Shown: one piece after another, positions 6,351 to 38,515 of the stretch
Layout: each line of letters begins with the position of its first letter
Numbering within the stretch: position 1 is the first letter of the stretch
Virus record (IMG/VR): IMGVR_UViG_3300030397_000353
Location: 1-38,664 of that record
From: a virus
Taxonomy: Duplodnaviria > Caudoviricetes
Length of the DNA stretch: 38,664 bases
Reading direction: 5' to 3' (one strand)
Translations under genes and position numbers: made by a program
The notes under the pieces: generated by a model
Databases searched by the model: none
What the model saw: only the letters and a program-made list of their open reading frames with translations
What the model was told of the DNA's origin: nothing

Positions 6351-6352
6351 GA

Positions 6353-7321: not shown

Positions 7322-7560
7322 TATCCGTCCTCTCGGCGTCTATGATAGCGTTTAAGGGCACGCTCGAACTTTTTGTAATCACGGTCTTTCACCGAACGCA
7401 TCCACGTGGCCATCAGCTTCCGGCGTTCGTCCTCTTCCGGAATCTGTGTTGCTAACATTTCCAAAAACTTTACTGCATGGGAATGCGCTTCTTCCCCGCG
7501 CACTCCAAGAGTGTGAGGAGAAAATTGTTTCTTAAGTTGATCAAATATACTTTGGGCCAT
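7321..7560 (-). CDS. Hypothetical protein, probably leaderless
   Basis: ATG at 7560 avoids overlap with the upstream gene and lies 5 nt after TAAATA. Confidence 0.6.
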   Translation of the reverse strand: MAQSIFDQLKKQFSPHTLGVRGEEAHSHAVKFLEMLATQIPEEDERRKLMATWMRSVKDRDYKKFERALKRYHRRREDG

Positions 7561-7565
7561 GATTA

Positions 7566-7571
7566 TATTTA
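7566..7571 (-). promoter_or_regulatory. Late-type TAAATA box, 5 nt before ATG
   Basis: TAAATA-TAATC-ATG with no SD; same geometry as 38510-38515. Confidence 0.55.
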
Positions 7572-8054
7572 ATCCGGTGCCCGTTCCCCGTATCTCCAAT
7601 GCTTCCCGTCACGGGTCGCAATGATGAATTGGCGTTTCATCTTCTTGGGAAGAATATTGAATTCCTTAGTGCCCAAACGGAAGTTCATCATTCGTTGCAA
7701 CAACTCCACCACGCCATCGAGGCCAAAGTCATCATACGGGACAAACATATTGTCTTCGAATTGGTCCTGTAGACTCTCGGGAAGCTTCGCGATGACATCG
7801 TCCGATGCCCGCATTTCGGTAGCTGTCAGAATATCAACGAATTCCGACACTGTAATGTCTTGTTGTGGAACAAAAGTTTTGCCATCAAAGTGGCGCTCAT
7901 GGGGCGGCTCCTTATCGTCATCAAAAACGATGTTGAAGAACTGAGCAATGTAATACAAATCTTCCTCGTTGAAATTAGAAAGAGGGGCGAACAGGTATTG
8001 TTCAAAAAACATACCATGGTCATCCAACGCCGGAATTTCACTCTGTTTCGTCAT
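7569..8054 (-). CDS. Hypothetical protein
   Basis: 161-aa ORF overlapping the helicase end. Confidence 0.65.
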   Translation of the reverse strand: MTKQSEIPALDDHGMFFEQYLFAPLSNFNEEDLYYIAQFFNIVFDDDKEPPHERHFDGKTFVPQQDITVSEFVDILTATEMRASDDVIAKLPESLQDQFEDNMFVPYDDFGLDGVVELLQRMMNFRLGTKEFNILPKKMKRQFIIATRDGKHWRYGERAPD

Positions 8055-9630
8055 TGTTGACTAACTCCTGTTGTGGGTGGTGCAAGGAACGCAGTTTCGC
8101 AAATGCTTCGACTGCATTTTTAGAAGAACCTGATTTTTCTTCTTCCTCTTTAACCTGTATACCTAATTCTTTAACTATTGGGTCGTTCTTCACGCTTTCG
8201 TTTACACGGCCCCTTGATTCTTCAGCGGGACGTTTAAATCCAAAGATTTTTGGATTCGACTTTTCAAACAAGTCTCGGTCACCGTCCGACATACGCTGTG
8301 TTCTTGAATCCCAGTGTAATGGTACCTTAGCTTTTGTCGCACCGGAGGAACGTGCTTTTGCAACGTGAGCCCACCACCGTTCATCCTCGTGGTCATCCTC
8401 TGAACGTTTACCAATGATAAGATTGTCACAGGTATTAATCTTCGGAGCACCACCGGCAACGCCAGACTGGCGTGGGTCTTTTTCATCCTGAGCGCCTTTG
8501 GTTTGTTGTGATGCCGACCAAAGAATTATGTTGTTTTCATGAGCCCAGTCATTCATTTCTTCGGAAACGAATTTATCTTTCATATGGATGTTGGATTTAT
8601 CAACCTTTTGATCAGGCTCCATAATATCGATGTAGTCGATTGCTACGCACGGAAAATTCAAACCGGTGTGCATGGTCAATTCCTGATAATGCGCAGCGAT
8701 GTCGGACATTGATGTTCCAATCATAGGAAACTTCACAACCCATAGGTCGCCATCAGTTTTGCCACGGGTATGCAAAGCATGACCGATAGTGTCCAAGTGA
8801 TTATAAACTTGGGCGATGTCCGTATTGGTCATCATTGCTGAGAAACGTTTGATGACGATTGCGGGCTCAAGTTCGAGCGTGTAAAAGATACAATTCCTTC
8901 CTTGCTCGACGTAGTTGACAATTTGGTTCTGTAGGTAAATGGATTTACCATCACCACTGGCCGCAGAAACGATGTTGAAGCTTGGCATAGTGAGACCGCC
9001 ACTAAAAGCGCGGTCCATATGAGAGAATCCGGTTGATTGGTTGTCTGATTCTTCCGCTCGGGTCAAAATAGGAACAGCCCCACCATGGATTTCGGTTCCC
9101 ATGTTTCGGATAAGGGACATGCGCTCGATGTTTGCAGCATCCTTCATGAGAGACGCAAGAGTTCCCCGGCTTCTGTCTGATGCGGTTACTTCAGAAGCAT
9201 GAACCAAAAAATCATGGAATGCAGTGGTACGGCAAAACTCCTCCACTTGATCACAGACGAAACTTTGACGTGATTCCTCTTTGGCATCATCACGGAAGGT
9301 TAGCTTAACTCCGGTAGCAGCATGGATTATGTCGGGATTCGGCATATCCTTATACTTCTTCAGGTGCTCCGTAATTTTATTAATCACCGGGCGATACTGA
9401 GGATCGAAATATTTCGCATCGATTAGGGGTGCGCATTTTACCCACAGTTCAGGGGCAGAGATCAAATACGAGAGTAGTAGTTGTTGGGTATAGTCGGACG
9501 GCTCAACAGTGTCGGTGTCCTGTTCAGCATCCATATCATCGAGGCTTGGAAGTTCGGAATCGGGACCATCAATGTCTTCGGTCTCTCCGAATGCTTCAGC
9601 AATTTCGTGATCTTCGAGTTCGCCTGTCAT
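8038..9630 (-). CDS. dnaB: Replicative DNA helicase (T4 gp41/DnaB family)
   Basis: Walker A AASGDGKS, YTLEL, Walker B VAIDYIDIM, WSASQ, KARS arginine finger. Confidence 0.9.
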   Translation of the reverse strand: MTGELEDHEIAEAFGETEDIDGPDSELPSLDDMDAEQDTDTVEPSDYTQQLLLSYLISAPELWVKCAPLIDAKYFDPQYRPVINKITEHLKKYKDMPNPDIIHAATGVKLTFRDDAKEESRQSFVCDQVEEFCRTTAFHDFLVHASEVTASDRSRGTLASLMKDAANIERMSLIRNMGTEIHGGAVPILTRAEESDNQSTGFSHMDRAFSGGLTMPSFNIVSAASGDGKSIYLQNQIVNYVEQGRNCIFYTLELEPAIVIKRFSAMMTNTDIAQVYNHLDTIGHALHTRGKTDGDLWVVKFPMIGTSMSDIAAHYQELTMHTGLNFPCVAIDYIDIMEPDQKVDKSNIHMKDKFVSEEMNDWAHENNIILWSASQQTKGAQDEKDPRQSGVAGGAPKINTCDNLIIGKRSEDDHEDERWWAHVAKARSSGATKAKVPLHWDSRTQRMSDGDRDLFEKSNPKIFGFKRPAEESRGRVNESVKNDPIVKELGIQVKEEEEKSGSSKNAVEAFAKLRSLHHPQQELVNNDETE

Positions 9631-10658
9631 ACGCTTTGTTGACCTAATATAGCCTTGGCTGACACGTAATGTCGCGTTGTTGCTTTCATCAAGATTTCAA
9701 TCGTAAACAAAAGACCATCCTTGACAATAGATTGACCTATGTCAGTTGTCTTTAGTTTGTCAGGATTCATTTGTCCAGTCCACTTTGGAACAGACACGAA
9801 CCATTTGTTTTCTTCTGCCTGACGAACGAACTCATTAGATTCTCCGATCTTACAGTCCGGCACCATGACAATATCCTTTCCGCATACCTTCAATAGATTT
9901 ATTTGTTTTTCTGTTAAACGATCATTTCTGGCAGCAACACAACCCAACAATGCTGCATCCATGGGGGATTCTACCACAAACAAATACCGACCACCATACG
10001 TTGATAGCTTATGTTGGTTGAAAAGATAATCCCCGGGCGCTCGTTGAATAAATCTCTTCGGACCACTTTCACGATAAATGTGTCTTCCCAGATATCCCAC
10101 GATTTTATCCTTGTAGTGGAAGTATGGCATGATCACGTAGTACGGATATTTTTCGGTCCAGTACAATGGGAAATTCTCCACGAAATTTCGACCCATTCGA
10201 GCGTGAGCATACTTCATTACCTTGCTCGCAGTTTTGCTTTGCATATAAACATCCAACAACAACTGCGATCCTTCAGGCAAAGAAACCTCCGGAAACTTGT
10301 AGACGACATCGAGGTCGTCCCCCCGTTCAACCATTTTGCCATCGGCTGAGAATTTAGAAGCATTCCATCGCATCCGTTCCGAGAGTGGAATCTTACGGGA
10401 ATCACCTCCGAGCAGTTCGAATAATTTAAGGGGACGCCCGCCGAAACCATTACCGGGTTCCCAACCTGTCGGCTGTGAGTTGAATTCGCATCCGCCGTTG
10501 AAGCAATAATAACGCCATCCCCCGGTGGGGGTAAAACTGGTGCCACCACGGAAACGCCGGTCACCGCAGGATGGACAACAAAAGTTGAGCCATCCCCCGG
10601 GACCGATTCGTCTGTTTGCCGGAATGACGAGGCGGAATTCTTCGAGGATGTCTGTCAT
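9627..10658 (-). CDS. DNA primase-like protein (gp61/DnaG-like, divergent)
   Basis: N-terminal Zn-binding CPSC...YYCFNGGC, VGYLGR, and TOPRIM-like VVESPMDA. Translationally coupled to the helicase. Confidence 0.75.
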   Translation of the reverse strand: MTDILEEFRLVIPANRRIGPGGWLNFCCPSCGDRRFRGGTSFTPTGGWRYYCFNGGCEFNSQPTGWEPGNGFGGRPLKLFELLGGDSRKIPLSERMRWNASKFSADGKMVERGDDLDVVYKFPEVSLPEGSQLLLDVYMQSKTASKVMKYAHARMGRNFVENFPLYWTEKYPYYVIMPYFHYKDKIVGYLGRHIYRESGPKRFIQRAPGDYLFNQHKLSTYGGRYLFVVESPMDAALLGCVAARNDRLTEKQINLLKVCGKDIVMVPDCKIGESNEFVRQAEENKWFVSVPKWTGQMNPDKLKTTDIGQSIVKDGLLFTIEILMKATTRHYVSAKAILGQQSV

Positions 10659-10664
10659 TCCCCG

Positions 10665-10693
10665 AATATAGGCTTCTATCCTAGAAAAATCAA
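10665..10693 (-). promoter_or_regulatory. Sigma70-like promoter, near-leaderless primase transcript
   Basis: TTGATT-17 nt-TATATT-6 nt-ATG. Confidence 0.6.
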
Positions 10694-10694
10694 T

Positions 10695-11195
10695 CTAGCG
10701 AAGGCGACTATCGTAAGTCCGACCGACTGTCAAATGATATCGATGATGCACTCGAAGACCAAGTTCATCACGAATATGATCGATCAACGGACACTCCACC
10801 TCGATGAACCAGAAATCACCATCCTTAGCATATCGGTTCTTTCGGTCGTCCATGGTCGTCTTGCGAGGATGATGGGCGTATGTGAATTCTACACTGACGC
10901 CATCGTACTTCTTCCACAAGTCGAGGTTCCGACGAGGAGTTTCACCACGAACGATGGATACATGAGCATCCCACGATGGCTGACACAACCAGTCGGGCTG
11001 AATGGCAGTCAAACCCCAAAGGCGACGTTCAATCAACCAGCGATAATATCGAGTGATTTCCTTGTCAACCTGAAGAATACACCAGTAATCGACGTTGCTA
11101 GCTCCGGACGCACGCTTCTTCTTCCGCATCCCCGGACGTGGAGGGTCGTACTTGATTCGACCCATAGCAGTGTGAGTGTAGGCATACTTTTCCAT
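10695..11195 (-). CDS. 2H phosphoesterase superfamily protein
   Basis: Two Hx(S/T) motifs (AHVSIVR, YHLTVGR) about 75 aa apart in a 166-aa protein. Confidence 0.7.
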   Translation of the reverse strand: MEKYAYTHTAMGRIKYDPPRPGMRKKKRASGASNVDYWCILQVDKEITRYYRWLIERRLWGLTAIQPDWLCQPSWDAHVSIVRGETPRRNLDLWKKYDGVSVEFTYAHHPRKTTMDDRKNRYAKDGDFWFIEVECPLIDHIRDELGLRVHHRYHLTVGRTYDSRLR

Positions 11196-11201
11196 AGTGG
11201 T

Positions 11202-11230
11202 ATTTTACCACCGTGGAAGCGTTTTGTCAA
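11202..11230 (-). promoter_or_regulatory. Strong sigma70-like promoter, leaderless
   Basis: TTGACA-17 nt (ending TGG, extended -10)-TAAAAT-6 nt-ATG, no SD. Confidence 0.85.
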
Positions 11231-11232
11231 AA

Positions 11233-11880
11233 TTACGGGGTAAGGACAGGATTGCGCGGGGTACCGGCAAAGTGGTTCAATGAGAGATTCCTTCCTTGAT
11301 CTGCTACCCGGGCTGGTGCGCTCAGACGTGTTCCGGGGATGACACCACCCGGACCAATAATTCCACCAGCCCCATTTGAAATTTCGAAGGAAACGAAATC
11401 ATCTGAGGCACGAAAGCCCAATCGATTACCGGGTTGAACACAAACAGCTTGTACTGACGTTGCGCCTAGTGTGGCATTCAGTTCGCCAACAACAGTTTGA
11501 CAATCTCCACCAGTTGCGGAAGTGCCAGCCGTGGTTACACCATTGATGATAATATCGACGGATGCTCCAGCAGGAAAAACGGGGTTTTTTACATTACCGA
11601 CAGCTTCGGTTATGGCAGCGGTATCGCTCCATGGATTGGAACCACCCGCTGAATGTCGGAAGAGTTTGCTAATTGACTCGTGAAGTAGCTTGGCTTCCTC
11701 ACGAGTCTGTAGCAGTTCCATATGAGAGCGAAGAAGTTCCAGTGTCGATAAAATTCGATTTTCTGAAACCTCGTCAGTTATTTCTGGATTGGCGGCGATG
11801 AAAGAAGCATATGGCTCCTCGGCATCTTCGCCGCCAGTCCATAACGTAGCGAGGATATCAGTGTCGTAATCATACGCCAT
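11233..11880 (-). CDS. Probable virion structural protein, paralog 2
   Basis: N-terminal ~75 aa highly similar to 11902..12633; GAGGA SD. Confidence 0.7.
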   Translation of the reverse strand: MAYDYDTDILATLWTGGEDAEEPYASFIAANPEITDEVSENRILSTLELLRSHMELLQTREEAKLLHESISKLFRHSAGGSNPWSDTAAITEAVGNVKNPVFPAGASVDIIINGVTTAGTSATGGDCQTVVGELNATLGATSVQAVCVQPGNRLGFRASDDFVSFEISNGAGGIIGPGGVIPGTRLSAPARVADQGRNLSLNHFAGTPRNPVLTP

Positions 11881-11901
11881 TGTATTTCCTCTTGCGCTAT
11901 C

Positions 11902-12633
11902 TTAGGTCAGAGCGGTTTCGCGGATTTGACCTTGAAATACACGCAGTGCGCGGTCACGAGCTTCGTTAGCAACGGCAGTAACCTTTGCAACGTAGAAACC
12001 ACCATTCAGGCCAGCTTCAGTAGCGCGTGCACCCGGCTCTTGGGTGACAATACCAGCAGTGGTAACAACGTTGTCGTTAGCACCTTCACCGCGAGTGATG
12101 ACAAAGCCATCAGCAGCAGTACCAGCAACAGGAGCCTGAGTGATACGCAGACGACCGTCTTGGGTGCGGGCTGCGGTAATACCAGCAGCAGTTACGGCAC
12201 CAGTGCCGTTGATGTCAGCAATGACGGTATCAAGATCGGTACCGGTTGCGGCAACAACTGCGATGGAAGCACCACCAGATACGCCGTCAAGAGCAGCAAA
12301 CTCGATTTCGTCACCGATAACGAAGGTTGGGTTTGGAACGTTACCTTCAACAACTGCGTTAACGTTGTCGGAAGTACCGCCGTAGATGAAACCACCGGAA
12401 CCAAAACCCTCAAGCATGGTAGATACGCAGAAGTGGAACAGACGAGCTTCGTCGCGGTCTGCAAGAACTGCCATGTGAGCACGGATTGCTTCAACGGTAG
12501 AAAGAATTCGGTTTTCAGAATCCTCGTCGGTCAGGGCAGGGTTGGCTGCAATAAACGCTGCATACGGCTCTGCGCCGTCTTCACCACCTGTCCACAGAGC
12601 CGCTAGGATATCTGTGTCGTAATCATAAGCCAT
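11902..12633 (-). CDS. Probable virion structural protein, paralog 1
   Basis: MAYDYDTDILAALWTGGED N-terminus shared with the neighbour; A/G/T-rich; late box upstream. Confidence 0.7.
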   Translation of the reverse strand: MAYDYDTDILAALWTGGEDGAEPYAAFIAANPALTDEDSENRILSTVEAIRAHMAVLADRDEARLFHFCVSTMLEGFGSGGFIYGGTSDNVNAVVEGNVPNPTFVIGDEIEFAALDGVSGGASIAVVAATGTDLDTVIADINGTGAVTAAGITAARTQDGRLRITQAPVAGTAADGFVITRGEGANDNVVTTAGIVTQEPGARATEAGLNGGFYVAKVTAVANEARDRALRVFQGQIRETALT

Positions 12634-12640
12634 TATTATA

Positions 12641-12699
12641 TTCCTCGTTTCAAGAAATGGGTTGTACTAGAGATAAGTATTTAGGCAACCCACGAGGAA
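12641..12699 (-). promoter_or_regulatory. SD-sequestering hairpin with late promoter in its loop
   Basis: mRNA sense TTCCTCG-TGGGTTG-[CCTAAATACTTATCTCTAGTA]-CAACCCA-TTTCTTGAAA-CGAGGAA: two perfect 7-bp stems, the outer one covering the SD. Confidence 0.8.
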
Positions 12700-12706
12700 C
12701 ACAGGG

Positions 12707-13528
12707 CTATTCTACCGGTAATGGGTTCTTTCTCGTCACAGTGGGGTCCAATTCTTCCGAGGATGAATTATCCAGTTCCGGTTTGGGCTCAGGTTTGAAT
12801 GGAATGCGCTCATTGAGATAAAAAAGGTGATTTCCAATTTGCACACTGAACTTGTAATGGGGTCTCCACCACGGGTCCACATAATCGGCATGGTATAACG
12901 TGGCACCACCGGTTTTATCCAGATGCGTCAAAATGTAAAACTTCGCATCAAGGTACTGGTCATAAGCCTCGCACTCGATTTCGTGCCACTGGACAACTTC
13001 TCCGTTTTCTTCGCGCTCGTTCCATTCATCATGTTGTTCCTTGATGTGGGGACAAAGAGAGTCTTTTTGCTTGGCACTAAGTGCGAAGTTGCGGGCAATC
13101 GTCCATGCCTCATCCCACTGTTCCTGTTCATTTTCGAAGGGTCTGTCGATGTGACCGTCCAACGTCCATGTGAACATGGGAATGTGTCGTTCAAAACGCC
13201 GTGACCAACGTTTCTCCCAAACTACGTCAGCAACGGTACCGGGCCATTCTGGGTCTTTGACGCGCCACATGGTAACTGCGGCAACAGCTAACATGCCTTC
13301 GGAATTTTGGTTCCGACCTTCCCAATAGATATTGCAAGCGAGTGATGCGAGGTCGTCATGCTTGTGGTCTTCACAATCGAAGTCCATCCGGACGGCGTGG
13401 GCGTCCATGGCGAAAAGGCCGAAGCCAATTAACAACAGAACTGCCCACGGTTTCATGCGAAGCAGTCCAAAGATAAACATCGTGCTAAATGCACCAATAA
13501 TCATTCTCATAATTCCTCTCCTTTCCAT
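12707..13528 (-). CDS. Cell wall hydrolase, SleB/Hydrolase_2 family, with hydrophobic N-terminus
   Basis: LACNIYWEGRNQ..EGMLAVAAVT..RV...WPGTVADVV, FTWT, GATLYHADYVDPWW, IGNHLFY. Confidence 0.88.
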   Translation of the reverse strand: MERRGIMRMIIGAFSTMFIFGLLRMKPWAVLLLIGFGLFAMDAHAVRMDFDCEDHKHDDLASLACNIYWEGRNQNSEGMLAVAAVTMWRVKDPEWPGTVADVVWEKRWSRRFERHIPMFTWTLDGHIDRPFENEQEQWDEAWTIARNFALSAKQKDSLCPHIKEQHDEWNEREENGEVVQWHEIECEAYDQYLDAKFYILTHLDKTGGATLYHADYVDPWWRPHYKFSVQIGNHLFYLNERIPFKPEPKPELDNSSSEELDPTVTRKNPLPVE

Positions 13529-14055
13529 ACGTAAAACCGGTTCGTGTTGAAGAATATTTTCATTACCGCCTTTTCGTCACCCGGTTGTGCGTTTTCTAAA
13601 CGATAATCTCCGTTTTTGTAAATGTAGGACCATGCCGTGATTTCGCCAACATCTCCACCTTCTTTGGCGTAGTTTGCTGTTACACGTTCCCGACGATAAA
13701 CATCCGGGTGGCCTTCAAACATATCCAGAAGCATTAGATTCTCGTTGTCTACCTCGTAAATTTCCCCGTTAACGATACCATGCGGGTCTCCCGGGACATT
13801 ACGCATAACAATCGGTGCTAAGTACCCACTGCTGGTACGACGTGCTTCCATTGTGAAATCGCCGTATAAATTAGCCTTCGATCCCCAGAGAGTAATTCCG
13901 TCATTCAGCATCCGGTGGTGATTCCGCATTCCAGTCATTAACGTTCCATACACGAATACGAGGTGCTTTTCACCGGAGTGAAGCACCGTTAGGTTGAGAT
14001 CACCAAATACTTCTTCGAAGTCGGTGTCGTCGTTAAATGTGTATAGCTCGCTCAT
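13507..14055 (-). CDS. Gamma-glutamylcyclotransferase (GGCT/AIG2-like)
   Basis: VFVYGTLMTG..NH, VNGEIYEV...LDMFEGHPDVYRR. Start reassigned to ATG 14055. Confidence 0.85.
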   Translation of the reverse strand: MSELYTFNDDTDFEEVFGDLNLTVLHSGEKHLVFVYGTLMTGMRNHHRMLNDGITLWGSKANLYGDFTMEARRTSSGYLAPIVMRNVPGDPHGIVNGEIYEVDNENLMLLDMFEGHPDVYRRERVTANYAKEGGDVGEITAWSYIYKNGDYRLENAQPGDEKAVMKIFFNTNRFYVWKGEEL

Positions 14056-14061
14056 CCCAAC

Positions 14062-14091
14062 AGAATAGCATAAATACCATGCATCTGTCAA
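14062..14091 (-). promoter_or_regulatory. Sigma70-like promoter, leaderless, for GGCT-SleB
   Basis: TTGACA-18 nt (ending TGC)-TATTCT-6 nt-ATG. Confidence 0.75.
14071..14076 (+). promoter_or_regulatory. Late-type TAAATA box heading the plus-strand tail fibre operon
   Basis: 25 nt upstream of ATG 14102, with AAGGA SD in between. Confidence 0.65.
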
Positions 14092-14101
14092 GGAATTTAA
14101 C

Positions 14102-14596
14102 ATGAGCAACAGAGTTATCTATAACGTCGAGTACGACATCCCGCGTGTTAACTTAACCCTGCCCGGTCGGCAAAACCGTTCCGGAGATGGTGTTATTCGT
14201 ATCACACCCGGAATGGATGAGTCTTTTGAGTTCATTTTCGGTAACCAAGACGGCGTCCCGGTTAACCTCGTACCATTCAAAGTCAAAATTGTTTTTTGGG
14301 TAAAGCAAGATATGGACATTGATGAACTGGTGCCCGGTCAAACCAAAATCATATTCGCCCGTGAGTTCGAAGTTCAGTCCCCATACAACGGACGTGTTTT
14401 TGGGCTATTGACTGCCGAAGATACACAGGCTATCGCACGCGAGCAGACCAGCTTGGTACGGTGGTCCATGTTTATGATCAATGAGGCTGGCAACGTTTTC
14501 CCGGCAGAAGTCAACCGTAATGGTACACGTGCTGGTACGGTTCGAATGGACTTTGCGTCAGGTATTCCTACAGCAGAGATGATTAAGTCCGCTTAA
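14102..14596 (+). CDS. Hypothetical protein, probable tail/baseplate-associated
   Basis: First gene of the fibre operon, beta-rich composition. Confidence 0.6.
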   Translation: MSNRVIYNVEYDIPRVNLTLPGRQNRSGDGVIRITPGMDESFEFIFGNQDGVPVNLVPFKVKIVFWVKQDMDIDELVPGQTKIIFAREFEVQSPYNGRVFGLLTAEDTQAIAREQTSLVRWSMFMINEAGNVFPAEVNRNGTRAGTVRMDFASGIPTAEMIKSA

Positions 14597-14599
14597 TGG

Positions 14600-14605
14600 T
14601 AAATA
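14600..14605 (+). promoter_or_regulatory. Late-type TAAATA box
   Basis: TAAATAACAAAA followed by GAGGA SD and ATG 14641. Confidence 0.65.
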
Positions 14606-14640
14606 ACAAAAACAATAATACTCGATAGAGGAAACGACAA

Positions 14641-15000
14641 ATGGTCGCACGCGCATACCCTGACCTCGGTGGTATCGGTGGTGTTCAAAACAATCCACCT
14701 GTAGCTTACTCCAACCGTGGTCTTGACCAAGACAGTGTTCAAACCTTCGTCTTCGAAGATGATCCTGCCGACCCATTCATCGGAACCATTCATCTTCAGG
14801 GATCGAATGACGCTCCACTAGGTACCACACCGGAAGGTGACCGAATCTGGGTAGATTTGGTTGCGATTACCCTCGATGGGGTTCCACCGCTCGGTAACTT
14901 TTTTGTCGAGACTGATGTTGAGATTTCTCAAGTGCGCTTAGTGTGCAAAACGGGGAATTACACAGGTGGTAAGCTCATTAGCTGCCGCAGCATGAGGTAA
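14641..15000 (+). CDS. Hypothetical protein, probable virion component
   Basis: SD-led 119-aa ORF before the tail fibre. Confidence 0.6.
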   Translation: MVARAYPDLGGIGGVQNNPPVAYSNRGLDQDSVQTFVFEDDPADPFIGTIHLQGSNDAPLGTTPEGDRIWVDLVAITLDGVPPLGNFFVETDVEISQVRLVCKTGNYTGGKLISCRSMR

Positions 15001-15005
15001 AGACA

Positions 15006-17309
15006 ATGACTGTTTCTATAGTTTCCGGTATTCCAATTTACGCTGGCCCGCTTGACATCGTAACCAGCATCCAAGCTCCTAACATTCCCGGTGGTGGAAC
15101 CCTCGGCATCGGTGACATTCTCGGTCTCCAATCTGCACTTGATTCCAAGCTGGAAGATGTCATTGGCACTATTGCTCCACTGACCACCAACGTTACCATT
15201 ACTGGTGCTGAACTCAATCATCTTGGTGGCGTAACTTCCGCTATCCAAACACAGCTTGATGGGAAGGTTGATATCCTTGGTGACACGATGGGTGGAAACC
15301 TTGCCTTCGGTCCCGGTGCAGCCGTTGAAGCCGATGCAGGAACCTCGGCACTCCCAAGCATCTCATGCGTTGGTGATCTCGACACTGGTTTTTTCTGGCC
15401 AGCAGCCGATACACTCGGTATCTCCGTTGGTGCGTTGGATGCATTCCGCATTCTACCAACTGGTCTTCTCCAATCCCAAGTAGCAACTTACGAAACTCTC
15501 GTTGTAGCGGATGACGATATTCCGAACAAGCGATACGTTGACGATGCTATTTCTGTTGCGATTGGTGGTCCATTCCTGCCGCTAGCCGGTGGAGTCATGA
15601 CAGGCGACATCGACTTGGATGGTGTGGCATCTCTGGTTTTGGATGCTGACGGTGATACGCTGATTAGCTCACTTGTTGATGACACTCTGAATATTGCCGT
15701 TGGTGGTGGTGTTGTCTTCATCATGGATGGCACGAATATTGATGTAGTTGGTCAGGGAATCAGTAATGTTCTCGATCCGGTTCTTGCACAAGATGCTGCG
15801 ACTAGAAATTACGTTGATACCGAAATCGTCGCACTTGGCCTCGGACCAACTACTGGACCATATCTCCCACTGTCTGGTGTTGACGCCATGACCGGTGCTC
15901 TTGATATGGGCACAAACCAAATCAACAACGTTGTTGATCCGACCGCAGCACAAGATGCTGCAACAATGAATTACGTCGATACCGAAATCCTAGCACTTGG
16001 TCTCGGTGGTGCAACTGGTCCGTTCCTCGAACTGGCTGGTGGTACCATGGGCGGCAATATCGCTATGGGTGGCAACGGCATTACTGGCCTCGTTGATCCG
16101 ACTGCGGCCCAAGACGCCGCTACCATGAACTATGTTGACACTGAGATTATTGCTTTGAATCTTGGTGGAACCCTCGGTCCGTATCTACCACTGTCTGGCG
16201 TAGATGCTATGACCGGTGCTCTTGATATGGGCACAAACCAAATCAACAATGTTGTCGATCCTACACTGGCCCAAGACGCGGCCACCATGAACTACGTCGA
16301 TACCGAGATTCTTGCTCTGGGTCTTGGCGGTGCAACTGGTCCGTTCCTCGAACTGGCTGGTGGTACAATGGGCGGCGATATCGCCATGGGTGGTAATGGT
16401 ATTACTGGTCTGGTTGATCCTACACTGGCCCAAGACGCGGCCACCATGAACTACGTCGATACCCAGATTCCTCTGGTAGCACTGCCTCTGGCTGGTGGTA
16501 CTATGACTGGCAACATCGCTATGGGTGGCAACGGCATTACTGGTCTCGTTGACCCAACTGCGGCACAAGATGCAGCCACAATGAACTACGTTGACACCGA
16601 AATTACCAACCTGTCATCCGGTGGTACATTCCTTGCGGTAGCTGGTGGTACCATGACTGGTGACCTCATCACTGATACGGGTGTTCAGTTTAGCGCTGAT
16701 TCCGGGACCATTGGTGCTCCCGCATACTCTTTCACTGGTGATCTGGATAGTGGTTTCTGGTGGGATGGTACGAACCTACGTATGTCCATCGGTGGTGCCA
16801 GCGCATTGACTGTTGCTGACTCTGGTGGTGCAAACGAACTCGATGTCCATGGCCGTCAAGTTGTCGGTGTTGCTGATCCAACAGATGATGATCATGCAGT
16901 AACCCGTGGTTATCTCGATGCGCAAAACATGGTTAAGCTGCTTGGTTCTGTTTCTGGTGTTGATCTTCTAGCTACGGGGACCACTCCAGTTTACACAATC
17001 CCGGCTGGAAGCATGCACGTCGTAACGCAAGTTATTGTTCGTGCAACCTCCTATACCCCGGGTGGTGCTCCGACCAACCCGTCGGCTTCTATCGGCCTGT
17101 CTGGCGCATTTGACCAGATTGTTGATACGAGTGTATTGGACTGGGGTGGCACTTCCGGCGCTGGTGACCAAGTTGTTTACCTACAGCCAAAGGACGGTGC
17201 AGATTCACCAAACGCAGGTAATACAATCTCGTTTCAAGTAGATACAGCAGGTGGCGGTACTTTTTCTGCCCTCGAAGCGACCATTTATATTTTAGGAATT
17301 GAACTATAA
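15006..17309 (+). CDS. Tail fibre-like protein with internal repeats
   Basis: G/T/D-rich. Contains LQSALDSK, LPLAGGTMTG and six DPxxAQDAATxNYVDT repeats typical of phage fibre shafts. Confidence 0.85.
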   Translation: MTVSIVSGIPIYAGPLDIVTSIQAPNIPGGGTLGIGDILGLQSALDSKLEDVIGTIAPLTTNVTITGAELNHLGGVTSAIQTQLDGKVDILGDTMGGNLAFGPGAAVEADAGTSALPSISCVGDLDTGFFWPAADTLGISVGALDAFRILPTGLLQSQVATYETLVVADDDIPNKRYVDDAISVAIGGPFLPLAGGVMTGDIDLDGVASLVLDADGDTLISSLVDDTLNIAVGGGVVFIMDGTNIDVVGQGISNVLDPVLAQDAATRNYVDTEIVALGLGPTTGPYLPLSGVDAMTGALDMGTNQINNVVDPTAAQDAATMNYVDTEILALGLGGATGPFLELAGGTMGGNIAMGGNGITGLVDPTAAQDAATMNYVDTEIIALNLGGTLGPYLPLSGVDAMTGALDMGTNQINNVVDPTLAQDAATMNYVDTEILALGLGGATGPFLELAGGTMGGDIAMGGNGITGLVDPTLAQDAATMNYVDTQIPLVALPLAGGTMTGNIAMGGNGITGLVDPTAAQDAATMNYVDTEITNLSSGGTFLAVAGGTMTGDLITDTGVQFSADSGTIGAPAYSFTGDLDSGFWWDGTNLRMSIGGASALTVADSGGANELDVHGRQVVGVADPTDDDHAVTRGYLDAQNMVKLLGSVSGVDLLATGTTPVYTIPAGSMHVVTQVIVRATSYTPGGAPTNPSASIGLSGAFDQIVDTSVLDWGGTSGAGDQVVYLQPKDGADSPNAGNTISFQVDTAGGGTFSALEATIYILGIEL
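15855..16600 (+). repeat. Tandem coding repeats, 321-bp higher-order unit made of two ~160-bp subunits
   Basis: GPYLPLSGVDAMTG starts at 15855 and again at 16176. An exact 48-nt duplicate occurs at 16257-16304 and 16416-16463. Confidence 0.9.
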
Positions 17310-17716
17310 TGCTTGATAGCACCACACTGGCACAGATCGAGGAAACTCGTGCTGAGCATGAGTTTCTTACCTTCTTAGTCCTGATGTCAGGCGATGTGAG
17401 AGTAGGAATTGTCCAAAACGAATCACCCAAAATGGTTCATTTCTACGATTTCGGAAAAATACGCGATGCCGAACTTCAGAAGAAATTTCTGGAGTTGGGC
17501 GATTCGTGGTGGTGGGGCAGCAATCAAGCCCTACCCGTGGATTCCTTCATCGGTGAAGAATTCGATGTGTTCGGCTCGGCCCTAACAGGATATCCCAAAA
17601 AGTCAATCGACGATATGTACGGCCCCACCATCTCCCTCCAAGAACAATACCTAAAAAGAGTCAAGAAAAAGAAAATCGAAATAGTAAACAGAACACAACT
17701 CGCAAGTGCTCTGTAA
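17309..17716 (+). CDS. Hypothetical protein
   Basis: Coupled to the fibre stop (TAATG); WWW motif, basic C-terminus. Confidence 0.7.
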   Translation: MLDSTTLAQIEETRAEHEFLTFLVLMSGDVRVGIVQNESPKMVHFYDFGKIRDAELQKKFLELGDSWWWGSNQALPVDSFIGEEFDVFGSALTGYPKKSIDDMYGPTISLQEQYLKRVKKKKIEIVNRTQLASAL

Positions 17717-17727
17717 CCCCAAAAACG

Positions 17728-17733
17728 TAAATA
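17728..17733 (+). promoter_or_regulatory. Late-type TAAATA box
   Basis: In the 50-nt gap before the second fibre gene. Confidence 0.6.
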
Positions 17734-17766
17734 GATATTAAACTACATCCGCAAAGAGAACGGTAA

Positions 17767-27573: not shown

Positions 27574-27589
27574 AAGTCTAGTCCTCTCT

Positions 27590-27657
27590 AAGTTTATGCA
27601 GTTCTATTCGAATCTACAGGTTTTGTTACAGTTCTATTCAGTTTTATACAGTTTTAT
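27590..27657 (-). repeat. Short direct repeats A(A/G)AACTG in the SSB leader
   Basis: ATAAAACTG-TATAAAACTG-AATAGAACTG-TAACAAAACCTG-...-AATAGAACTG-CATAAACTT, then GAGAGGA SD. Confidence 0.75.
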
Positions 27658-28241: not shown

Positions 28242-28303
28242 GGTTTCCTCTCGTGAATGTCAGTGTCAAAAACAAGATGATACCAGTTTCGAGGAAAGTC
28301 AAG

Positions 28304-31139: not shown

Positions 31140-31145
31140 TATTTA
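31140..31145 (-). promoter_or_regulatory. Late-type TAAATA box overlapping the upstream stop codon
   Basis: TAAATA 25 nt before ATG 31114, with AGGA SD. Confidence 0.55.
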
Positions 31146-33888: not shown

Positions 33889-33902
33889 AATCGATGCTCC
33901 TC

Positions 33903-33916
33903 GTAAATATATTTAC
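33903..33916. promoter_or_regulatory. Palindromic double TAAATA box (divergent late promoters)
   Basis: GTAAATATATTTAC is a perfect 14-bp palindrome between two divergent SD-led genes. Confidence 0.7.
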
Positions 33917-33947
33917 CCATAACCAACAATCAAATTTTGGAGAAAGC

Positions 33948-34166
33948 ATGCGCGTCGAGGTTCGTCACGGAAATGTTGATAAAGCACTAAAGATACTCAA
34001 GAAGAAATTATTCGATGATGGAGCAATTCGGGAGGCCATGGATCGCCGGTATTTCGAGAAGCCATCAGACGCCCGCCGAAAGAAACACAAGGAAGCCGTT
34101 AATCGGACCAAGAAAGCGTTGAACAAGGAACGGGCAAAACAACTCGCCGCAAAACGGCGCAAATAA
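33948..34166 (+). CDS. rpsU: Ribosomal protein bS21, phage-encoded
   Basis: MRVEVRHGNVDKALKILKKK...GAIRE...RRYFEKPS..RRKK; GGAG SD before ATG 33948; 72 aa. Confidence 0.93.
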   Translation: MRVEVRHGNVDKALKILKKKLFDDGAIREAMDRRYFEKPSDARRKKHKEAVNRTKKALNKERAKQLAAKRRK

Positions 34167-34192
34167 AAAAGGGGCTGTACAGCCCCTTCTTC
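34165..34192. terminator. Bidirectional intrinsic terminator between rpsU and tail tube
   Basis: AAAAAAGGGGCT-GTAC-AGCCCCTTCTTC between convergent genes. Confidence 0.85.
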
Positions 34193-34209
34193 AATTATAG
34201 GTTCAGCGA

Positions 34210-34974
34210 TTAGATTCCGAAGGAACCACCAACGCTGCCGCCTACCGTAGCACCACCAATTGAGGTAGAGCCGGATACACCGATACTAACGGAAGCACCA
34301 GAAGTGCTAACGCCACCACCAGCAGCACCAGAACCAGTAGAGATGACACCCGACTGTGCAGCAATTTCTGCACCGTGAGAGAAAACACCCATACGGAAAC
34401 CATCTTGGTTGAAGCCGATAACGTTGTCGTAACGAAGGGTAAGAGTGACTTCCATCGGAGCCGCTTCTTCGTAAGACATTTCGTTGGCATTGTAATTGAC
34501 GATCTGGCAACCAGCAAAGCACCACTTCTGAACAATGTTCGGATCAGCAGCGGAACCACCAGCAGACTGACCACCGGCTAGGATGTCAAGGTCCATTTCG
34601 AACTTGTAGTTTTCACCAGCACGAGACATGGTCTGGTCGAAGAAGTTCTGTTGCTTGGCATTCTGTTCCATTACACGCTGGTGTACGGAATTGGTAATAT
34701 CATCAACGAAGACAACATCAATCGTTCCCCATTCACCACGAGTGTTGATGTACACCGTAGAAACGTAGGAATAAAGAGTCTGAATTTCGAATTCTAGATT
34801 TGGACGACCCATGCGACGAATTTGGCGGGTCAAGTCATACGGGGCTACTTCACCCGGGGTACCAAAGTTGAAGAACAGCACGCGAAAGCGATTGGATAGA
34901 ATCGGCTGCAATTGTGCAGAACGATCACCGTTCAGGCCCGGTACACCGAAGTTGGCGAGGGAATTTACCGTCAT
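34210..34974 (-). CDS. Tail tube protein (gp19-like)
   Basis: LQPILSNRFRVLF...LTRQI...RPNLEF...GEWGTI...DD...W...GCQI...Y....LTLRYDN; near the sheath gene; G/S-rich tail. Confidence 0.85.
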   Translation of the reverse strand: MTVNSLANFGVPGLNGDRSAQLQPILSNRFRVLFFNFGTPGEVAPYDLTRQIRRMGRPNLEFEIQTLYSYVSTVYINTRGEWGTIDVVFVDDITNSVHQRVMEQNAKQQNFFDQTMSRAGENYKFEMDLDILAGGQSAGGSAADPNIVQKWCFAGCQIVNYNANEMSYEEAAPMEVTLTLRYDNVIGFNQDGFRMGVFSHGAEIAAQSGVISTGSGAAGGGVSTSGASVSIGVSGSTSIGGATVGGSVGGSFGI

Positions 34975-34979
34975 TGTTT

Positions 34980-35039
34980 TTGTCTCCTAAGCAGATGGAG
35001 TATTTATATCTATTACTGCTATTTAGGGCTAAGAGACAA
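34980..35039 (-). promoter_or_regulatory. SD-sequestering hairpin with TATAAATA late promoter in its loop
   Basis: TTGTCT..CCTAA..GCAG..[TATAAATA at 35001-35008]..CTGC-TTAGG-AGACAA; the SD AGGAG is in the 3' arm. A second TAAATA lies at 35020-35025. Confidence 0.75.
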
Positions 35040-35041
35040 TA

Positions 35042-35296
35042 TCAATCACAAGGAAAATAAGAATATCTTTCTTCCGTACTATCCAAATCTACAGAATCGT
35101 CACCATCGGTAAGTGACACGGAACCAAACATCTCCAGTGTTTCGAGTTCTGCCTTCGTTGTTGGTTCTAATTTGTACGCACCAAGCATGGAATTTTTCCC
35201 ATACTTCTCACATGATACATGACTCCCAACAACTCTTCCATCCGGATGTCGTATCCAGTAATAGAATTTAGTTTCGGATGTTTCCGTAGAGGACAT
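35042..35296 (-). CDS. Hypothetical protein
   Basis: 84-aa ORF overlapping the phosphatase end. Confidence 0.5.
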   Translation of the reverse strand: MSSTETSETKFYYWIRHPDGRVVGSHVSCEKYGKNSMLGAYKLEPTTKAELETLEMFGSVSLTDGDDSVDLDSTEERYSYFPCD

Positions 35297-35840
35297 AGGG
35301 CATCACCATTTCGATTGGTTGTTTCATGATGGCAGCTTCATCCATTCCCTTGAGATAGCCGATTAGAATTTTCATCGGAACGGTATGCGAACATACCCAT
35401 ACATTCTTTCCGTCATTTACCAACGGAACCACGTATTCTCGGAAGAACGGAAGAACCCGGTCTTCTACATCTCGGAAGGATTCACCTTGTGGTGGAGCCT
35501 CGAAGTATTCCCTCTCCCACAGCTTGTAATGCTTGGGTGCAAACTCTTTACGGATGTCTTGATAGGTCATGCCCTCTAAAGTACCGCCTGAGCGCTCTCT
35601 GAGTTCTTCTGAGAGCGTCCAACTGTCCCGGGGGTGGCTATGCCCTATGACCAACTCTGTCGTCGTCTGACAGCGCTCAAGGTCGCTCACGAAGATGGCA
35701 TCGTACTTGTGTCCACCAATATCGTCACGGAATTGCATAGCGGCCTGCTTACCATCATTTGTTAATGGCGAGTCAGTATGACCGAGCATCCGATTTTCGA
35801 CATTTGCTTCGGTCTCGGCGTGATGAATTAGAACGAGCAT
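35268..35840 (-). CDS. Histidine phosphatase (phosphoglycerate mutase-like) family protein
   Basis: HHAETEAN...G.TDSPLT..GKQAA, SDLERCQTT, LRERSGG.LEG, PPQGES..DV..RV, VCSH. Confidence 0.88.
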   Translation of the reverse strand: MLVLIHHAETEANVENRMLGHTDSPLTNDGKQAAMQFRDDIGGHKYDAIFVSDLERCQTTTELVIGHSHPRDSWTLSEELRERSGGTLEGMTYQDIRKEFAPKHYKLWEREYFEAPPQGESFRDVEDRVLPFFREYVVPLVNDGKNVWVCSHTVPMKILIGYLKGMDEAAIMKQPIEMVMPYVLYGNIRN

Positions 35841-36353
35841 TTAGTGGTACTGTGTTGAGTAGAGTTCCTTCGCATTCGTAGCACGGCTTCCCCATGCGGC
35901 ATTCACTTTTTCAATCATTGGTTCGGTGACCACCAATGTGTTTGCCATGGTATCCATAATATGAGCCAGCGTTATTCGTACTACTTCGTCGAAGACGTAT
36001 CTGTTAACGAATTCTTTGTATTCCAACATTTCGCCAACTGATTCGATGGCTCCTTCGGACTCAATTTGTTTGGTCGTTATGGTTACGCCTTGGAACAATG
36101 TTGCTTCGTCCTTGGTGTATCCCAATGTCGGGTCGGTTGGGGCAGTCGGGAATGTGAGTTCCGAAAACAATTCAAAAACTATTTTCACCCCTTTGGATTT
36201 CTTGTTGATAGAACCTTCGATATTGCATTTCTTACCCCATCCCATCATAGGAATCGATGTGCGTGGCTTAACGTCAGCCATTTTCATGATGATTGCATCA
36301 AAGTCAACGTCGTAATTGTTGACTGGCTGGTGCATTCCGGGTTTAAATGTCAT
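35841..36353 (-). CDS. Hypothetical protein
   Basis: GGAGG SD 8 nt before ATG; abuts the phosphatase start. Confidence 0.65.
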   Translation of the reverse strand: MTFKPGMHQPVNNYDVDFDAIIMKMADVKPRTSIPMMGWGKKCNIEGSINKKSKGVKIVFELFSELTFPTAPTDPTLGYTKDEATLFQGVTITTKQIESEGAIESVGEMLEYKEFVNRYVFDEVVRITLAHIMDTMANTLVVTEPMIEKVNAAWGSRATNAKELYSTQYH

Positions 36354-36377
36354 AGGTCATACCTCCAGTTCCCTAAA

Positions 36378-36406
36378 AGTATATACCCTTTTTAGATGCT
36401 ACACAA
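36378..36406 (-). promoter_or_regulatory. Sigma70-like promoter
   Basis: TTGTGT-17 nt-TATACT upstream of the three non-structural genes. Confidence 0.55.
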
Positions 36407-38504
36407 GAGAAAGACCGGCGAGTCTCTTAATTTCTGCAAGTTCTTCTCGGAAGGCTGCTTCTCGACGCTTGGCTTCCAGTGAAAGTTTTTGTTGTTTCGA
36501 GTGGTCGCTGGCCGGGGTGATACCAGTACGTAATGTCTGATTCAAGATGGCAGCAGTATTGTTGATAAGTTGGTCCATGGCAAGCATAATTTTATCTTCA
36601 TCAAATTCTTTTGCCAATTTGTCGGGCTCATTATACGTACCCAATTCCATGTCGGGGAAATTTCCGTATTTTCCACGGTGATCGCTGGAGCCAGAGTATT
36701 CATCCACGCTTATACCATCATAGCTGGACCATTCTGCATATACGTGGTAATCATCATCCTCCCAAACGTCTTCTCCCCCACCGGCCATACCGGCTTCTAA
36801 TGCATTCATCAAATCTTGCATACCGATGGTCATAGCCCATGGTCCGAATACTATGTTGTCATTCTCAACCGGTCCTACGCCAATTACGTGGGGGCGAACG
36901 TGAAGCCCTTCTGAAGCATATGCTTCAAGGCGGTCCATAATTTCTTCTCTTAGTTTTTCAACTTGTCCATTGACAGCACTCGCATCAATTGCCTTGTGGG
37001 CCGCATCGGCTACATAATCGAAGAACCGATTTCCTTCTCGCTCTTTATCCAATACTTTCGCAATTCCGCGTGCCATCTTATGTTGATCCTTTGACGGTGT
37101 AACTCCCACGCCCCGGGCTACACTTATTACCAGACCAATCGGTAGTGACTCGAACACATGAATCAAGAATTCTTCGTCGATGGATTCATCAACATTATCC
37201 GGTTTAATATCCAACCCATCAATTTCTTCCAATAACTTGAATAAACTTTCCGGAGCACCATCACCATGTTCCTTTACCAATGCCTCGTAGTTTTCCCATT
37301 GGTCTAATATTACATCAACAGCATGCATTCCTTTTTCGGCGTGTGTCAAATCAAATTCGGCTCGTCCACCCGGAACTTCTAAACCATGATCATCCATCAA
37401 ATTCTGAACTTCGCGTGCCGCTTCATCGTAGTCTCCAGCTTCCCACGCCCTTTCGATGAAATACGTAGGACCAGCAAGACCCGGCTTTTCGTCTATAAGC
37501 TGTTCACGTAATTCATCATCTTCCAAATCCTTCAAACCGAAATTGTTCTCGGGCATGTAGCCACCCCCGACTATTCCTTCGATCTTTTCGTGGCGCAACA
37601 AAGGAACAATATACTTGTGGTATCGTTCGGCGGGCTTATCGTTGCCACGACCCTTCATCTCCGTCAGCATTCCGTTTTCGTTCAAAATGAATGTCAACAT
37701 ACACGAATATTTCATTTCGCCATTCATAGGAAATTCCTTCCGAAGACTCAAAATAGTGTCATCAGAACTTTCCCGTGGTTGGTTACCACAATGACCCATA
37801 CATGCGGCTTCTTGTGGACAGTAGGCCGTTTCCAAATCCCACCATGCAACACCGTCCCCAAAATCAATCAGTATTACTCCACCATCTTCTGGTCCCGGAG
37901 CGTCAACGACACGGTCCTGATCCTCTTCCCATTCTTTACTGATTTCTTTGAAATGATTTATAAGCTGCTGCGGTAGCTCGTATCCAAAAGTGTGGTTCTG
38001 AATTCCATGAATTGGCATACTCATGTAGTGAACCATTTCTTGTTTCAGTGCATCACCACGAAGTGTTTGACCAGCAGCCCGGATGATATTATCTGGAGTA
38101 GTGCCAGCCTTTGCAGCCATCTGCGCTGCCTTTTTATTAACAAGGTTCCACAATGGGGCTACCTCGGGGTGGCTGTACGTGTCAGAAACATCCATCTGTT
38201 GTCCGTCGTGTTGTTGATGAGCTAACAACCCATCTTCGATGTCATTTTTTATTTCGAGAATTAAACCAAGCTGGACATACCGGAGATACCAAATAATACG
38301 GTCTTCGCGCTCAAGAACACGTCGTGCCCAATTGATTTCTTGATTAGTTTTGTGCTCTATTTGGTCTCGGACTTTGGGAGAAGGAGCAATTTGCAGAACA
38401 TTCTGAAACATCGGCCATAGACGTTTCGCAGACGGCGCAGCTTCATCTAACTGCTCCAGTCCGGCCAATCTCAAAATATCATTGATTTCGTCTAGGAAGT
38501 CCAT
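36399..38504 (-). CDS. Large acidic protein with PcfJ-like central domain and terminal RLAGL motifs
   Basis: EAACMGHC...ILSLR...LTFIL...EMKGRGNDKP resembles the PcfJ-like pattern; ILRLAGL at the N-terminus and IKRLAGL at the C-terminus. Confidence 0.6.
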   Translation of the reverse strand: MDFLDEINDILRLAGLEQLDEAAPSAKRLWPMFQNVLQIAPSPKVRDQIEHKTNQEINWARRVLEREDRIIWYLRYVQLGLILEIKNDIEDGLLAHQQHDGQQMDVSDTYSHPEVAPLWNLVNKKAAQMAAKAGTTPDNIIRAAGQTLRGDALKQEMVHYMSMPIHGIQNHTFGYELPQQLINHFKEISKEWEEDQDRVVDAPGPEDGGVILIDFGDGVAWWDLETAYCPQEAACMGHCGNQPRESSDDTILSLRKEFPMNGEMKYSCMLTFILNENGMLTEMKGRGNDKPAERYHKYIVPLLRHEKIEGIVGGGYMPENNFGLKDLEDDELREQLIDEKPGLAGPTYFIERAWEAGDYDEAAREVQNLMDDHGLEVPGGRAEFDLTHAEKGMHAVDVILDQWENYEALVKEHGDGAPESLFKLLEEIDGLDIKPDNVDESIDEEFLIHVFESLPIGLVISVARGVGVTPSKDQHKMARGIAKVLDKEREGNRFFDYVADAAHKAIDASAVNGQVEKLREEIMDRLEAYASEGLHVRPHVIGVGPVENDNIVFGPWAMTIGMQDLMNALEAGMAGGGEDVWEDDDYHVYAEWSSYDGISVDEYSGSSDHRGKYGNFPDMELGTYNEPDKLAKEFDEDKIMLAMDQLINNTAAILNQTLRTGITPASDHSKQQKLSLEAKRREAAFREELAEIKRLAGLSLV

Positions 38505-38509
38505 AGCAA

Positions 38510-38515
38510 TATTTA
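38510..38515 (-). promoter_or_regulatory. Late-type TAAATA box, 5 nt before ATG (leaderless)
   Basis: TAAATA-TTGCT-ATG directly after the sheath terminator, no SD. Confidence 0.65.

What the first reader, a model, noticed from the sequence alone, without database searches (positions are those of the whole stretch)
7560..38515. Window-wide translational insulation between early and late genes without terminators
Seen: at same-strand junctions between a sigma70-driven block and a TAAATA-driven block there is no obvious terminator. Instead the downstream gene has (a) its SD paired in a hairpin whose loop holds its own promoter (12641-12699, 34980-35039, weaker at 28244-28297), or (b) no usable SD, with its own promoter 5-6 nt from the ATG (7560, 11195; the same geometry also at 10658, 14055 and 38504). 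Known: T4 uses RBS-occluding hairpins for a few late genes such as e, soc and I-TevI. Inference: this phage uses both devices, in both temporal directions, so a gene is translated only from its own promoter's transcript. A late-expressed bS21 may be the trans-acting partner. I do not know of this combined architecture having been described.
Basis: partly seen in the sequence, partly recalled or inferred. Interest (0 to 1): 0.85.

Follow-up and report, generated by a model that had tools for sequence, protein, structure and literature searches.

The report
Promoter-gated translation starts in jumbo phage
In this jumbo phage several genes carry their predicted promoter inside a conserved RNA hairpin or directly against the start codon, which likely lets them be translated from their own short transcript but not from read-through RNA; it is mostly a known T4 device with an added leaderless form, not a rule for every gene.

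Summary
The sequence features are real. The window is part of a PA5oct/Atu_ph07/CBB-like jumbo phage. The hairpins before the virion gene (12633) and tube gene (34974) bury the SD and hold TAAATA in the loop; the first is kept in 11 aligned sequences with compensatory changes. The dUTPase stem is not above shuffles. Five leaderless geometries are conserved (30 of 30 upstream sequences). New: the leaderless sigma70-type gene at 11195 also has a 12-19 bp co-varying hairpin, -10 box at the tip, burying the AUG. Over four genomes such hairpins sit at 61 of 358 promoters exposed to read-through against 7 of 193 not exposed. The general rule fails: only 20 of 96 class switches have one (same class 26 of 186, p=0.10), leaderless starts are not enriched at switches (6 of 36 against 13 of 93), 38504 has a terminator, and T4 scores the same hairpin rate, including at gene 1 after a late gene. 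Leaderless starts of both promoter classes appear only in this lineage among the five genomes tested. bS21 is genuine but does not track either device. No RNA data: start sites, timing and repression are inferred.

The parts
12641..12699 (-). SD-occluding hairpin before the 243-aa gene 11902-12633; 5' arm 12686-12699, SD arm 12641-12648
12678..12683 (-). predicted late promoter TAAATA in the loop
   Evidence: invariant in 11 of 11 rows
11902..12633 (-). 243-aa gene with no family match, presumed late/virion from its promoter and neighbours
11233..11880 (-). paralog with its own SD and no promoter or guard hairpin
11190..11218 (-). hairpin with the -10 box at the tip and the AUG of 10695-11195 in the 3' arm (12 bp here, up to 19 bp in relatives)
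11202..11230 (-). predicted sigma70 promoter TTGACA-17-TAAAAT, 6 nt before ATG 11195
10665..10693 (-). predicted sigma70 promoter 6 nt before the primase ATG 10658 (leaderless)
14062..14091 (-). predicted sigma70 promoter 6 nt before ATG 14055 (gamma-glutamyl cyclotransferase), overlapping the divergent TAAATA of 14102
7566..7571 (-). TAAATA 5 nt before ATG 7560 (virion protein family phrog_11854); its TAA is the stop of the upstream gene
28244..28302 (-). predicted sigma70 promoter of dUTPase with an anti-SD in the spacer (28291-28297); weak, not above shuffles
33904..34166 (+). TAAATA (33904-33909) and bS21 gene 33948-34166
34169..34188 (.). terminator-like stem between the convergent bS21 and tube genes
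34980..35039 (-). SD-occluding hairpin before tail tube gene 34210-34974; TAAATA at 35020-35025 and 35001-35006 inside
36358..36406 (-). predicted sigma70 promoter of 35841-36353; -10 box and discriminator can pair with the SD (11 bp); not above shuffles
38510..38515 (-). TAAATA 5 nt before ATG 38504 (leaderless)
38525..38552 (-). intrinsic terminator-like stem and T-run upstream of the 38504 promoter

Best explanation
At some promoters that lie inside a same-strand run with no terminator, this phage has an anti-RBS sequence upstream of the predicted start site, so read-through RNA likely folds over the SD or AUG and stays untranslated while RNA from the gene's own promoter would lack that arm and be translated. 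This is the T4 gene e / 49 / I-TevI device, here at late TAAATA promoters (12633, 34974) and at a sigma70-type promoter (11195). Separately, this lineage likely starts about one in six promoter-bearing genes with no leader; that would silence them on read-through RNA where no upstream ribosome can reinitiate, but it is a lineage habit not aimed at class junctions. At 11195 both are combined. Rho polarity on the untranslated RNA may then act as the missing terminator. Shown: sequences, spacings, conservation, covariation, context statistics. Inferred: promoter activity, timing, start sites, folding in vivo, repression, polarity.
For: Covariation at 12633: 85% of cells paired, 6 of 16 pairs changed on both sides, score 0.180 against 0.081+-0.021 shuffled and at most 0.064 slid; 9 of 13 sequences p<0.05 singly. 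At 11195: 98.6% paired, 7 of 500 shuffles as high, G-U kept at three pairs; 5 of 6 sequences at the floor p=0.016, window 0.082. Context: 61 of 358 against 7 of 193, p=8e-7; pseudo-promoter controls 8 of 145 and 10 of 200. Tube gene: stem where early genes read in (p=0.024 in 3 of 4, 0.073 in one), none in 2 relatives with an opposite-strand ORF upstream nor in PA5oct and CBB, which have a terminator call there. Sheath gene: stem in CBB and Atu_ph07, weaker in PA5oct, all with a dNMP-kinase homolog one or two genes upstream; none in G001, which lacks that neighbour. The test recovers T4 genes 49, I-TevI, I-TevII and segB. The 360 kb relative encodes a homolog of the CBB late sigma factor (E 1e-17 over 94 aa). 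Leaderless peaks in G001: 12 at 6 nt and 8 at 5 nt against 0-2 at other distances.
Against: Six of eight outer SD-helix pairs at 12633 never vary, so they give no covariation, and the short RNA still costs 3-9 kcal/mol to open. Most exposed promoters (297 of 358) have no hairpin. Switch against same class is not significant (p=0.10). In G001 sigma70-type hairpins are at background (2 of 37); the sigma70 signal comes from Atu_ph07 (21 of 90) and CBB (7 of 50). The paralog at 11880 keeps an open SD and would be read on early RNA unless polarity removes it. At 7560 the upstream stop is 8 nt from the ATG, so reinitiation is possible. A window site that scored p=0.010 (14102) is not conserved, so single-site scores can be chance. 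The cut-off was changed.
Confidence: 0.7

Rival explanations
1. Strong form of the first reader: a genome-wide design in which hairpins and leaderless starts replace terminators at early/late junctions, so each gene is translated only from its own promoter's RNA.
For: All 6 class switches without a terminator in the window have a candidate device (36353, 34974, 28241, 12633, 11195, 7560). Switches have more hairpins than all other classified promoters (20 of 96 against 33 of 379, p=0.001); in Atu_ph07 8 of 16 TTGAC promoters after a late block have one. Class labels are noisy, which would blur a true effect.
Against: Two of those six are not above shuffles; 26 of 36 switches in G001 have neither device and leaderless starts show no preference; terminator-like stems exist at 38525-38552, 34169-34188 and 5044-5057.
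Confidence: 0.15
2. The stems act on the RNA, not the ribosome: conditional terminators, RNase III sites or 3'-end stabilisers that form only in read-through RNA.
For: In Atu_ph07 14 of 34 hairpin genes have a run of 4 or more T just before the ATG against 19 of 184 others (p=4e-5). Stems of 15-19 bp at 11195 orthologs are long enough for RNase III (own knowledge).
Against: No T-run after the window's stems or in G001 (0 of 12); the 3' arm is the SD or AUG itself.
Confidence: 0.2
3. The inverted repeats round the promoters are DNA elements (repressor operators or promoter-opening aids), and leaderless starts reflect only host habit and genome compaction.
For: The 11195 repeat is centred on the -10 box. 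14055 and 14102 have overlapping divergent promoters in a 46-nt gap. Leaderless mRNAs are common in some hosts (171 in S. meliloti, PMC3616915, passages).
Against: G-U pairs are kept and the arm sequence changes freely, unlike an operator; Atu_ph07, with an alphaproteobacterial host, shows no leaderless peak. The host of this phage was not determined.
Confidence: 0.15
4. Late phage bS21 remodels ribosomes so that they read these starts selectively.
For: bS21 passes TIGR00030 (54.7 bits, cut-off 28.95), has a TAAATA upstream and is kept in all 8 close tube loci.
Against: Does not track the devices across genomes. Three of five leaderless genes are sigma70-type and would be expressed before it. 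The lambda cI structure abstract says loss of bS21 eases leaderless mRNA exit (PMC10491246), so more bS21 would favour SD-led starts if anything.
Confidence: 0.1

Closest known systems
T4 RBS-sequestering hairpins at e, soc, 49, I-TevI, I-TevII/III, segB and Aeh1 mobE (PMC3014915, section 29 read)
   Same: Late promoter inside the 5' arm or loop; long RNA buries SD or AUG; short RNA lacks the arm. Same rate by my test (T4 6 of 35 late; this clade 17% of exposed promoters).
   Different: Different phage group (jumbo, TAAATA core); guards structural and unknown genes, not mainly nucleases and lysozyme; the described T4 cases are late promoters, whereas here one strong case is sigma70-type and leaderless. 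T4 shows no leaderless peak.
Leaderless mRNAs such as lambda cI from pRM (PMC10491246, abstract) and host leaderless mRNAs (PMC3616915, passages)
   Same: Predicted start site coincides with the A of ATG; no SD.
   Different: Occurs at both host-sigma and phage late promoters, at about 24 genes of a 360 kb genome, once with an AUG-burying stem.
Predicted ATAAATA late promoter of CBB and GAP32 (PMC5259590, passages)
   Same: Same motif before structural genes; late sigma homolog in the relative.
   Different: The passages seen mention no hairpins at these promoters and the word leaderless does not occur; my scan finds hairpins at 11 of 71 CBB late promoters.

Membership tests
T4-type promoter-dependent RBS-occluding hairpin | SD or AUG paired with sequence upstream of the gene's own start site | tested here: met
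   12633, 34974, 11195; start sites are predicted
T4-type promoter-dependent RBS-occluding hairpin | own promoter within the 5' arm or loop | tested here: met
T4-type promoter-dependent RBS-occluding hairpin | structure conserved with compensatory changes | tested here: met
   inconclusive for dUTPase and 36353
T4-type promoter-dependent RBS-occluding hairpin | long upstream transcript crosses the site | tested here: inconclusive
   no intrinsic terminator found; Rho sites not testable
T4-type promoter-dependent RBS-occluding hairpin | lower translation from long than short RNA | not testable with these tools
   needs reporters or Ribo-seq
Leaderless mRNA | 5' end at the A of AUG | tested here: inconclusive
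   spacing fits in 30 of 30 sequences and gives sharp genome peaks; no 5'-end data
Leaderless mRNA | AUG start and no SD | tested here: met
   29 of 30 without an SD match
Intrinsic terminator (for the guard hairpins) | U-tract right after the stem | tested here: not met
   absent at the window's stems and in 12 of 12 G001 cases; present in 14 of 34 Atu_ph07 cases
gp55-type late promoter | motif before structural genes and a late sigma gene in the genome | tested here: met
   sigma homolog in relative G001, not in the window
Ribosomal protein bS21 | TIGR00030 above cut-off | tested here: met
Group 2.2 jumbo phages (PMC7824862, passages) | gp32-like SSB, UvsW helicase, split Pol III alpha module, sigma factor, gp23-type capsid | tested here: inconclusive
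   SSB, UvsW, UvsX/Y and a DNA polymerase family in the window; sigma and major head protein in G001; tube hits to PA5oct, Atu_ph07, CBB at 29-35%; no tree built

The most novel reading that the evidence does not exclude
Phages that transcribe by sigma swapping insulate genes from read-through in both time directions by hiding an anti-RBS inside the promoter itself: late-to-early as well as early-to-late, as a leaderless AUG-burying stem in this lineage and as a promoter-in-terminator in Atu_ph07, with Rho polarity doing the terminating; T4 genes 1, 55 and regB would be undescribed cases of the same rule.
Probability: 0.3. Interest if true: 0.75.

Novelty: new variant of a known kind. Interest (0 to 1): 0.5.

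Why it matters
It suggests how large phages with interleaved early and late genes and few terminators keep protein timing when mRNA timing is blurred, so RNA-seq classes would mislead for these genes. The device appears in cultured phages (Atu_ph07, CBB, PA5oct, T4), so it can be tested now. A promoter carrying its own anti-RBS is also a compact insulator part. Leaderless starts matter for annotation of this lineage.

Tried and rejected
The terminator tool listed none of the three clear stems, so a script was used. Earlier findings: nothing by words or relatives. Host from bS21: one uninformative match. Hairpin at 14102: p=0.010 but not conserved, rejected. AUG-burying stems at 10658, 14055, 7560, 38504: 1 of 17 sequences below p=0.05, rejected; in G001 4 of 24 leaderless genes below 0.05. 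Idea that the invariant leader motif at 12641-12654 is a middle-promoter -35: not enriched before starts in G001, unresolved. Loss of the tube hairpin beside inserted ORFs is consistent with the model but may be a mechanical result of the insertion. T4 genes e and soc were not scored by my scan (the proximal e promoter is 13 nt from the start, under the 15-nt limit; the reason for soc was not checked). Not tested: PA5oct sigma70 promoters, the last 90 kb of Atu_ph07, the last 22 kb of CBB.

Full report
What the window is. A 38.7 kb contig, the whole of G000, with primase, helicase, UvsW/X/Y, SSB, dUTPase, terminase and tail genes. The tube protein matches 92 phage records, the best at 29-35% identity, among them PA5oct, Atu_ph07, GAP32 and CBB. 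Closer relatives came from viral and metagenome contigs, among them a 360 kb record G001, 91% complete. Many of these contigs are near copies, so I counted distinct upstream sequences only; they remain kin, not independent.

Promoter classes. 15 of 17 TAAATA sites lie within 80 nt upstream of a start. An ATAAATA late motif was predicted for CBB and GAP32 (PMC5259590, passages), and G001 has a homolog of the CBB late sigma factor. Sigma70-type sites are at chance density overall (24 against 24.7), but the two best in 1-19500 end 6 nt before an ATG. Early and late labels rest on motif and gene function only.

Hairpins. I compared the cost of opening the RBS in RNA starting at the predicted start site with RNA extended upstream, against shuffles of the upstream part. 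12633: 6.2 against 11.6 kcal/mol, p=0.010; 34974: 2.6 against 15.8, p=0.005; dUTPase 3.4 against 8.5, p=0.24; of ten other leadered late genes only 14102 scored (p=0.010) and it is not conserved. For 12633, 11 distinct sequences were aligned (four loci with the same leader and two divergent ones, L096 and L099, left out): covariation 0.180 against 0.081, 0 of 500 shuffles, slid controls at most 0.064; six core SD pairs are invariant and so uninformative. 9 of 13 sequences pass singly. The tube stem holds in the window, L005 and L007 (L007 with a different arm), weakly in L001, and not in L003 and L014, where an opposite-strand ORF lies upstream. dUTPase and a further candidate at 36353 are not above shuffles in any of 3 and 4 sequences (one 36353 relative was not run).

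Leaderless starts. The spacing is kept in 4 of 4 (7560), 7 of 7 (10658), 6 of 6 (11195), 9 of 9 (14055) and 4 of 4 (38504) sequences, with no SD in 29 of 30; a distant G001 homolog of 14055 is leadered. In G001 a plain pattern gives 12 starts at 6 nt after the -10 box and 8 at 5 nt after TAAATA, against 0-2 at other distances up to 14; Atu_ph07 has 0 and 2, PA5oct 1 and 3, CBB 1 and 0, T4 0 and 0. The PA5oct primase shows the same geometry with GTG. That these spacings put +1 on the A is from my own knowledge of sigma70 and T4 late promoters.

New site. 11195 is leaderless and also lies in a stem of 12 bp here and up to 19 bp in relatives, with the -10 box at the tip and the AUG and first codons in the 3' arm. 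71 of 72 cells pair, two pairs change on both sides, G-U is tolerated (six sequences only). It follows late genes with no terminator and is the best late-to-early case. The other four leaderless sites have no such stem.

Terminators. Clear stems with T-runs lie before the 38504 promoter, between bS21 and the tube gene, and at 5044-5057. None was found at the six class switches or at 10658. Rho sites cannot be seen.

Genome-wide test. With my own gene calls and a matrix trained on this lineage's leaderless promoters, G001 has 152 promoter-bearing genes, 24 leaderless. Either device: 10 of 36 switches against 17 of 93 others, p=0.17; leaderless alone 6 of 36 against 13 of 93, p=0.45 (23 genes of unknown upstream class left out). 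Promoter-bearing genes exceed pseudo-promoter controls (mean z 0.60 against 0.07, p=0.0008). With a cut-off set afterwards (z 2.5, 4 kcal/mol, 20-30 shuffles), G001, Atu_ph07 (400 of 490 kb), PA5oct (late only) and CBB (356 of 378 kb) give 61 of 358 exposed against 7 of 193 divergent or terminated promoters, p=8e-7; switch 20 of 96 against same class 26 of 186, p=0.10. Controls: 8 of 145 and 10 of 200, some of which look like missed promoters. The sigma70 side is background in G001 (2 of 37) and strong in Atu_ph07 (21 of 90), where 14 of 34 stems are followed by a T-run.

Benchmark. In T4 the scan finds 6 of 35 late promoters, including 49, I-TevI, I-TevII and segB, and 3 of 29 TATAAT promoters: 55, regB and gene 1, the last directly after late gene 3. 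So hairpin density here is no higher than in T4, and the reverse direction is predicted in T4 as well.

bS21. Genuine, with a late motif. Matches in PA5oct and Atu_ph07, none in CBB, which has 18 hairpins in 143 promoters. It tracks neither device.

Literature. Ten searches listed no paper describing these hairpins or leaderless starts in this phage group, nor the combination; the library lacks most subscription papers, including much older T4 work. Seen: PMC3014915 passages and section 29; PMC7318152, PMC5259590, PMC7824862, PMC3616915, PMC2988021 passages; PMC10491246 abstract; the rest as listings. Supplements (promoter tables of CBB and PA5oct) were not read and may bear on promoter calls.

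Verdict. A real, conserved T4-type device in a new phage group, with a lineage-specific leaderless layer and one site that combines both; not a universal insulation rule, and no evidence for bS21 as partner. New variant of a known kind, interest 0.5.

Noticed in passing
window 12641-12654 (-): 14-base leader motif invariant in 11 of 11 relatives, longer than an SD needs, forming a weak stem with an AAA loop even in the short RNA; the hexamer GAAACG is also enriched 10-19 nt before starts in Atu_ph07 (32 against 3 expected). Possible protein-binding site.
   Followed up: partly
Atu_ph07 (W02), e.g. genes at 103758, 108174, 224600, 239836, 360492: Promoter-overlapping hairpins whose 3' arm is the SD and which end in a T-run before the ATG: candidate terminators that form only in read-through RNA.
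   Followed up: partly
T4 (W04) genes 55, regB, 1: Strong predicted RBS-occluding hairpins overlapping TATAAT promoters (z 8.0, 7.7, 4.0), not among the cases listed in the review section read.
   Followed up: partly
window 27575-27653 (-): Five AACTG-type repeats upstream of the gp32-like SSB gene, resembling an autoregulatory operator (recalled from T4 gene 32).
   Followed up: no
window 33904-33915 and 14055-14102: Back-to-back divergent promoters: two TAAATA on opposite strands between bS21 and 33888; a TAAATA inside the spacer of the opposite sigma70 promoter at 14055.
   Followed up: no
window 1118-1483 (+), 5853-6350 (+); L003 9030-9917 (-); L014 13-1461 (-): Endonuclease-like ORFs on the strand opposite to their neighbours (GIY-YIG shown for 5853-6350; the others judged by eye).
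   Followed up: no
window 27977 and 4483 (-): Two TAAATA sites inside genes: in dUTPase 403 nt before SSB, and 106 nt before 4376; possible late promoters for downstream genes.
   Followed up: no
window 6521-7321 (-), 143-1111 (-): Sulfotransferase and radical SAM genes among presumed late genes.
   Followed up: no
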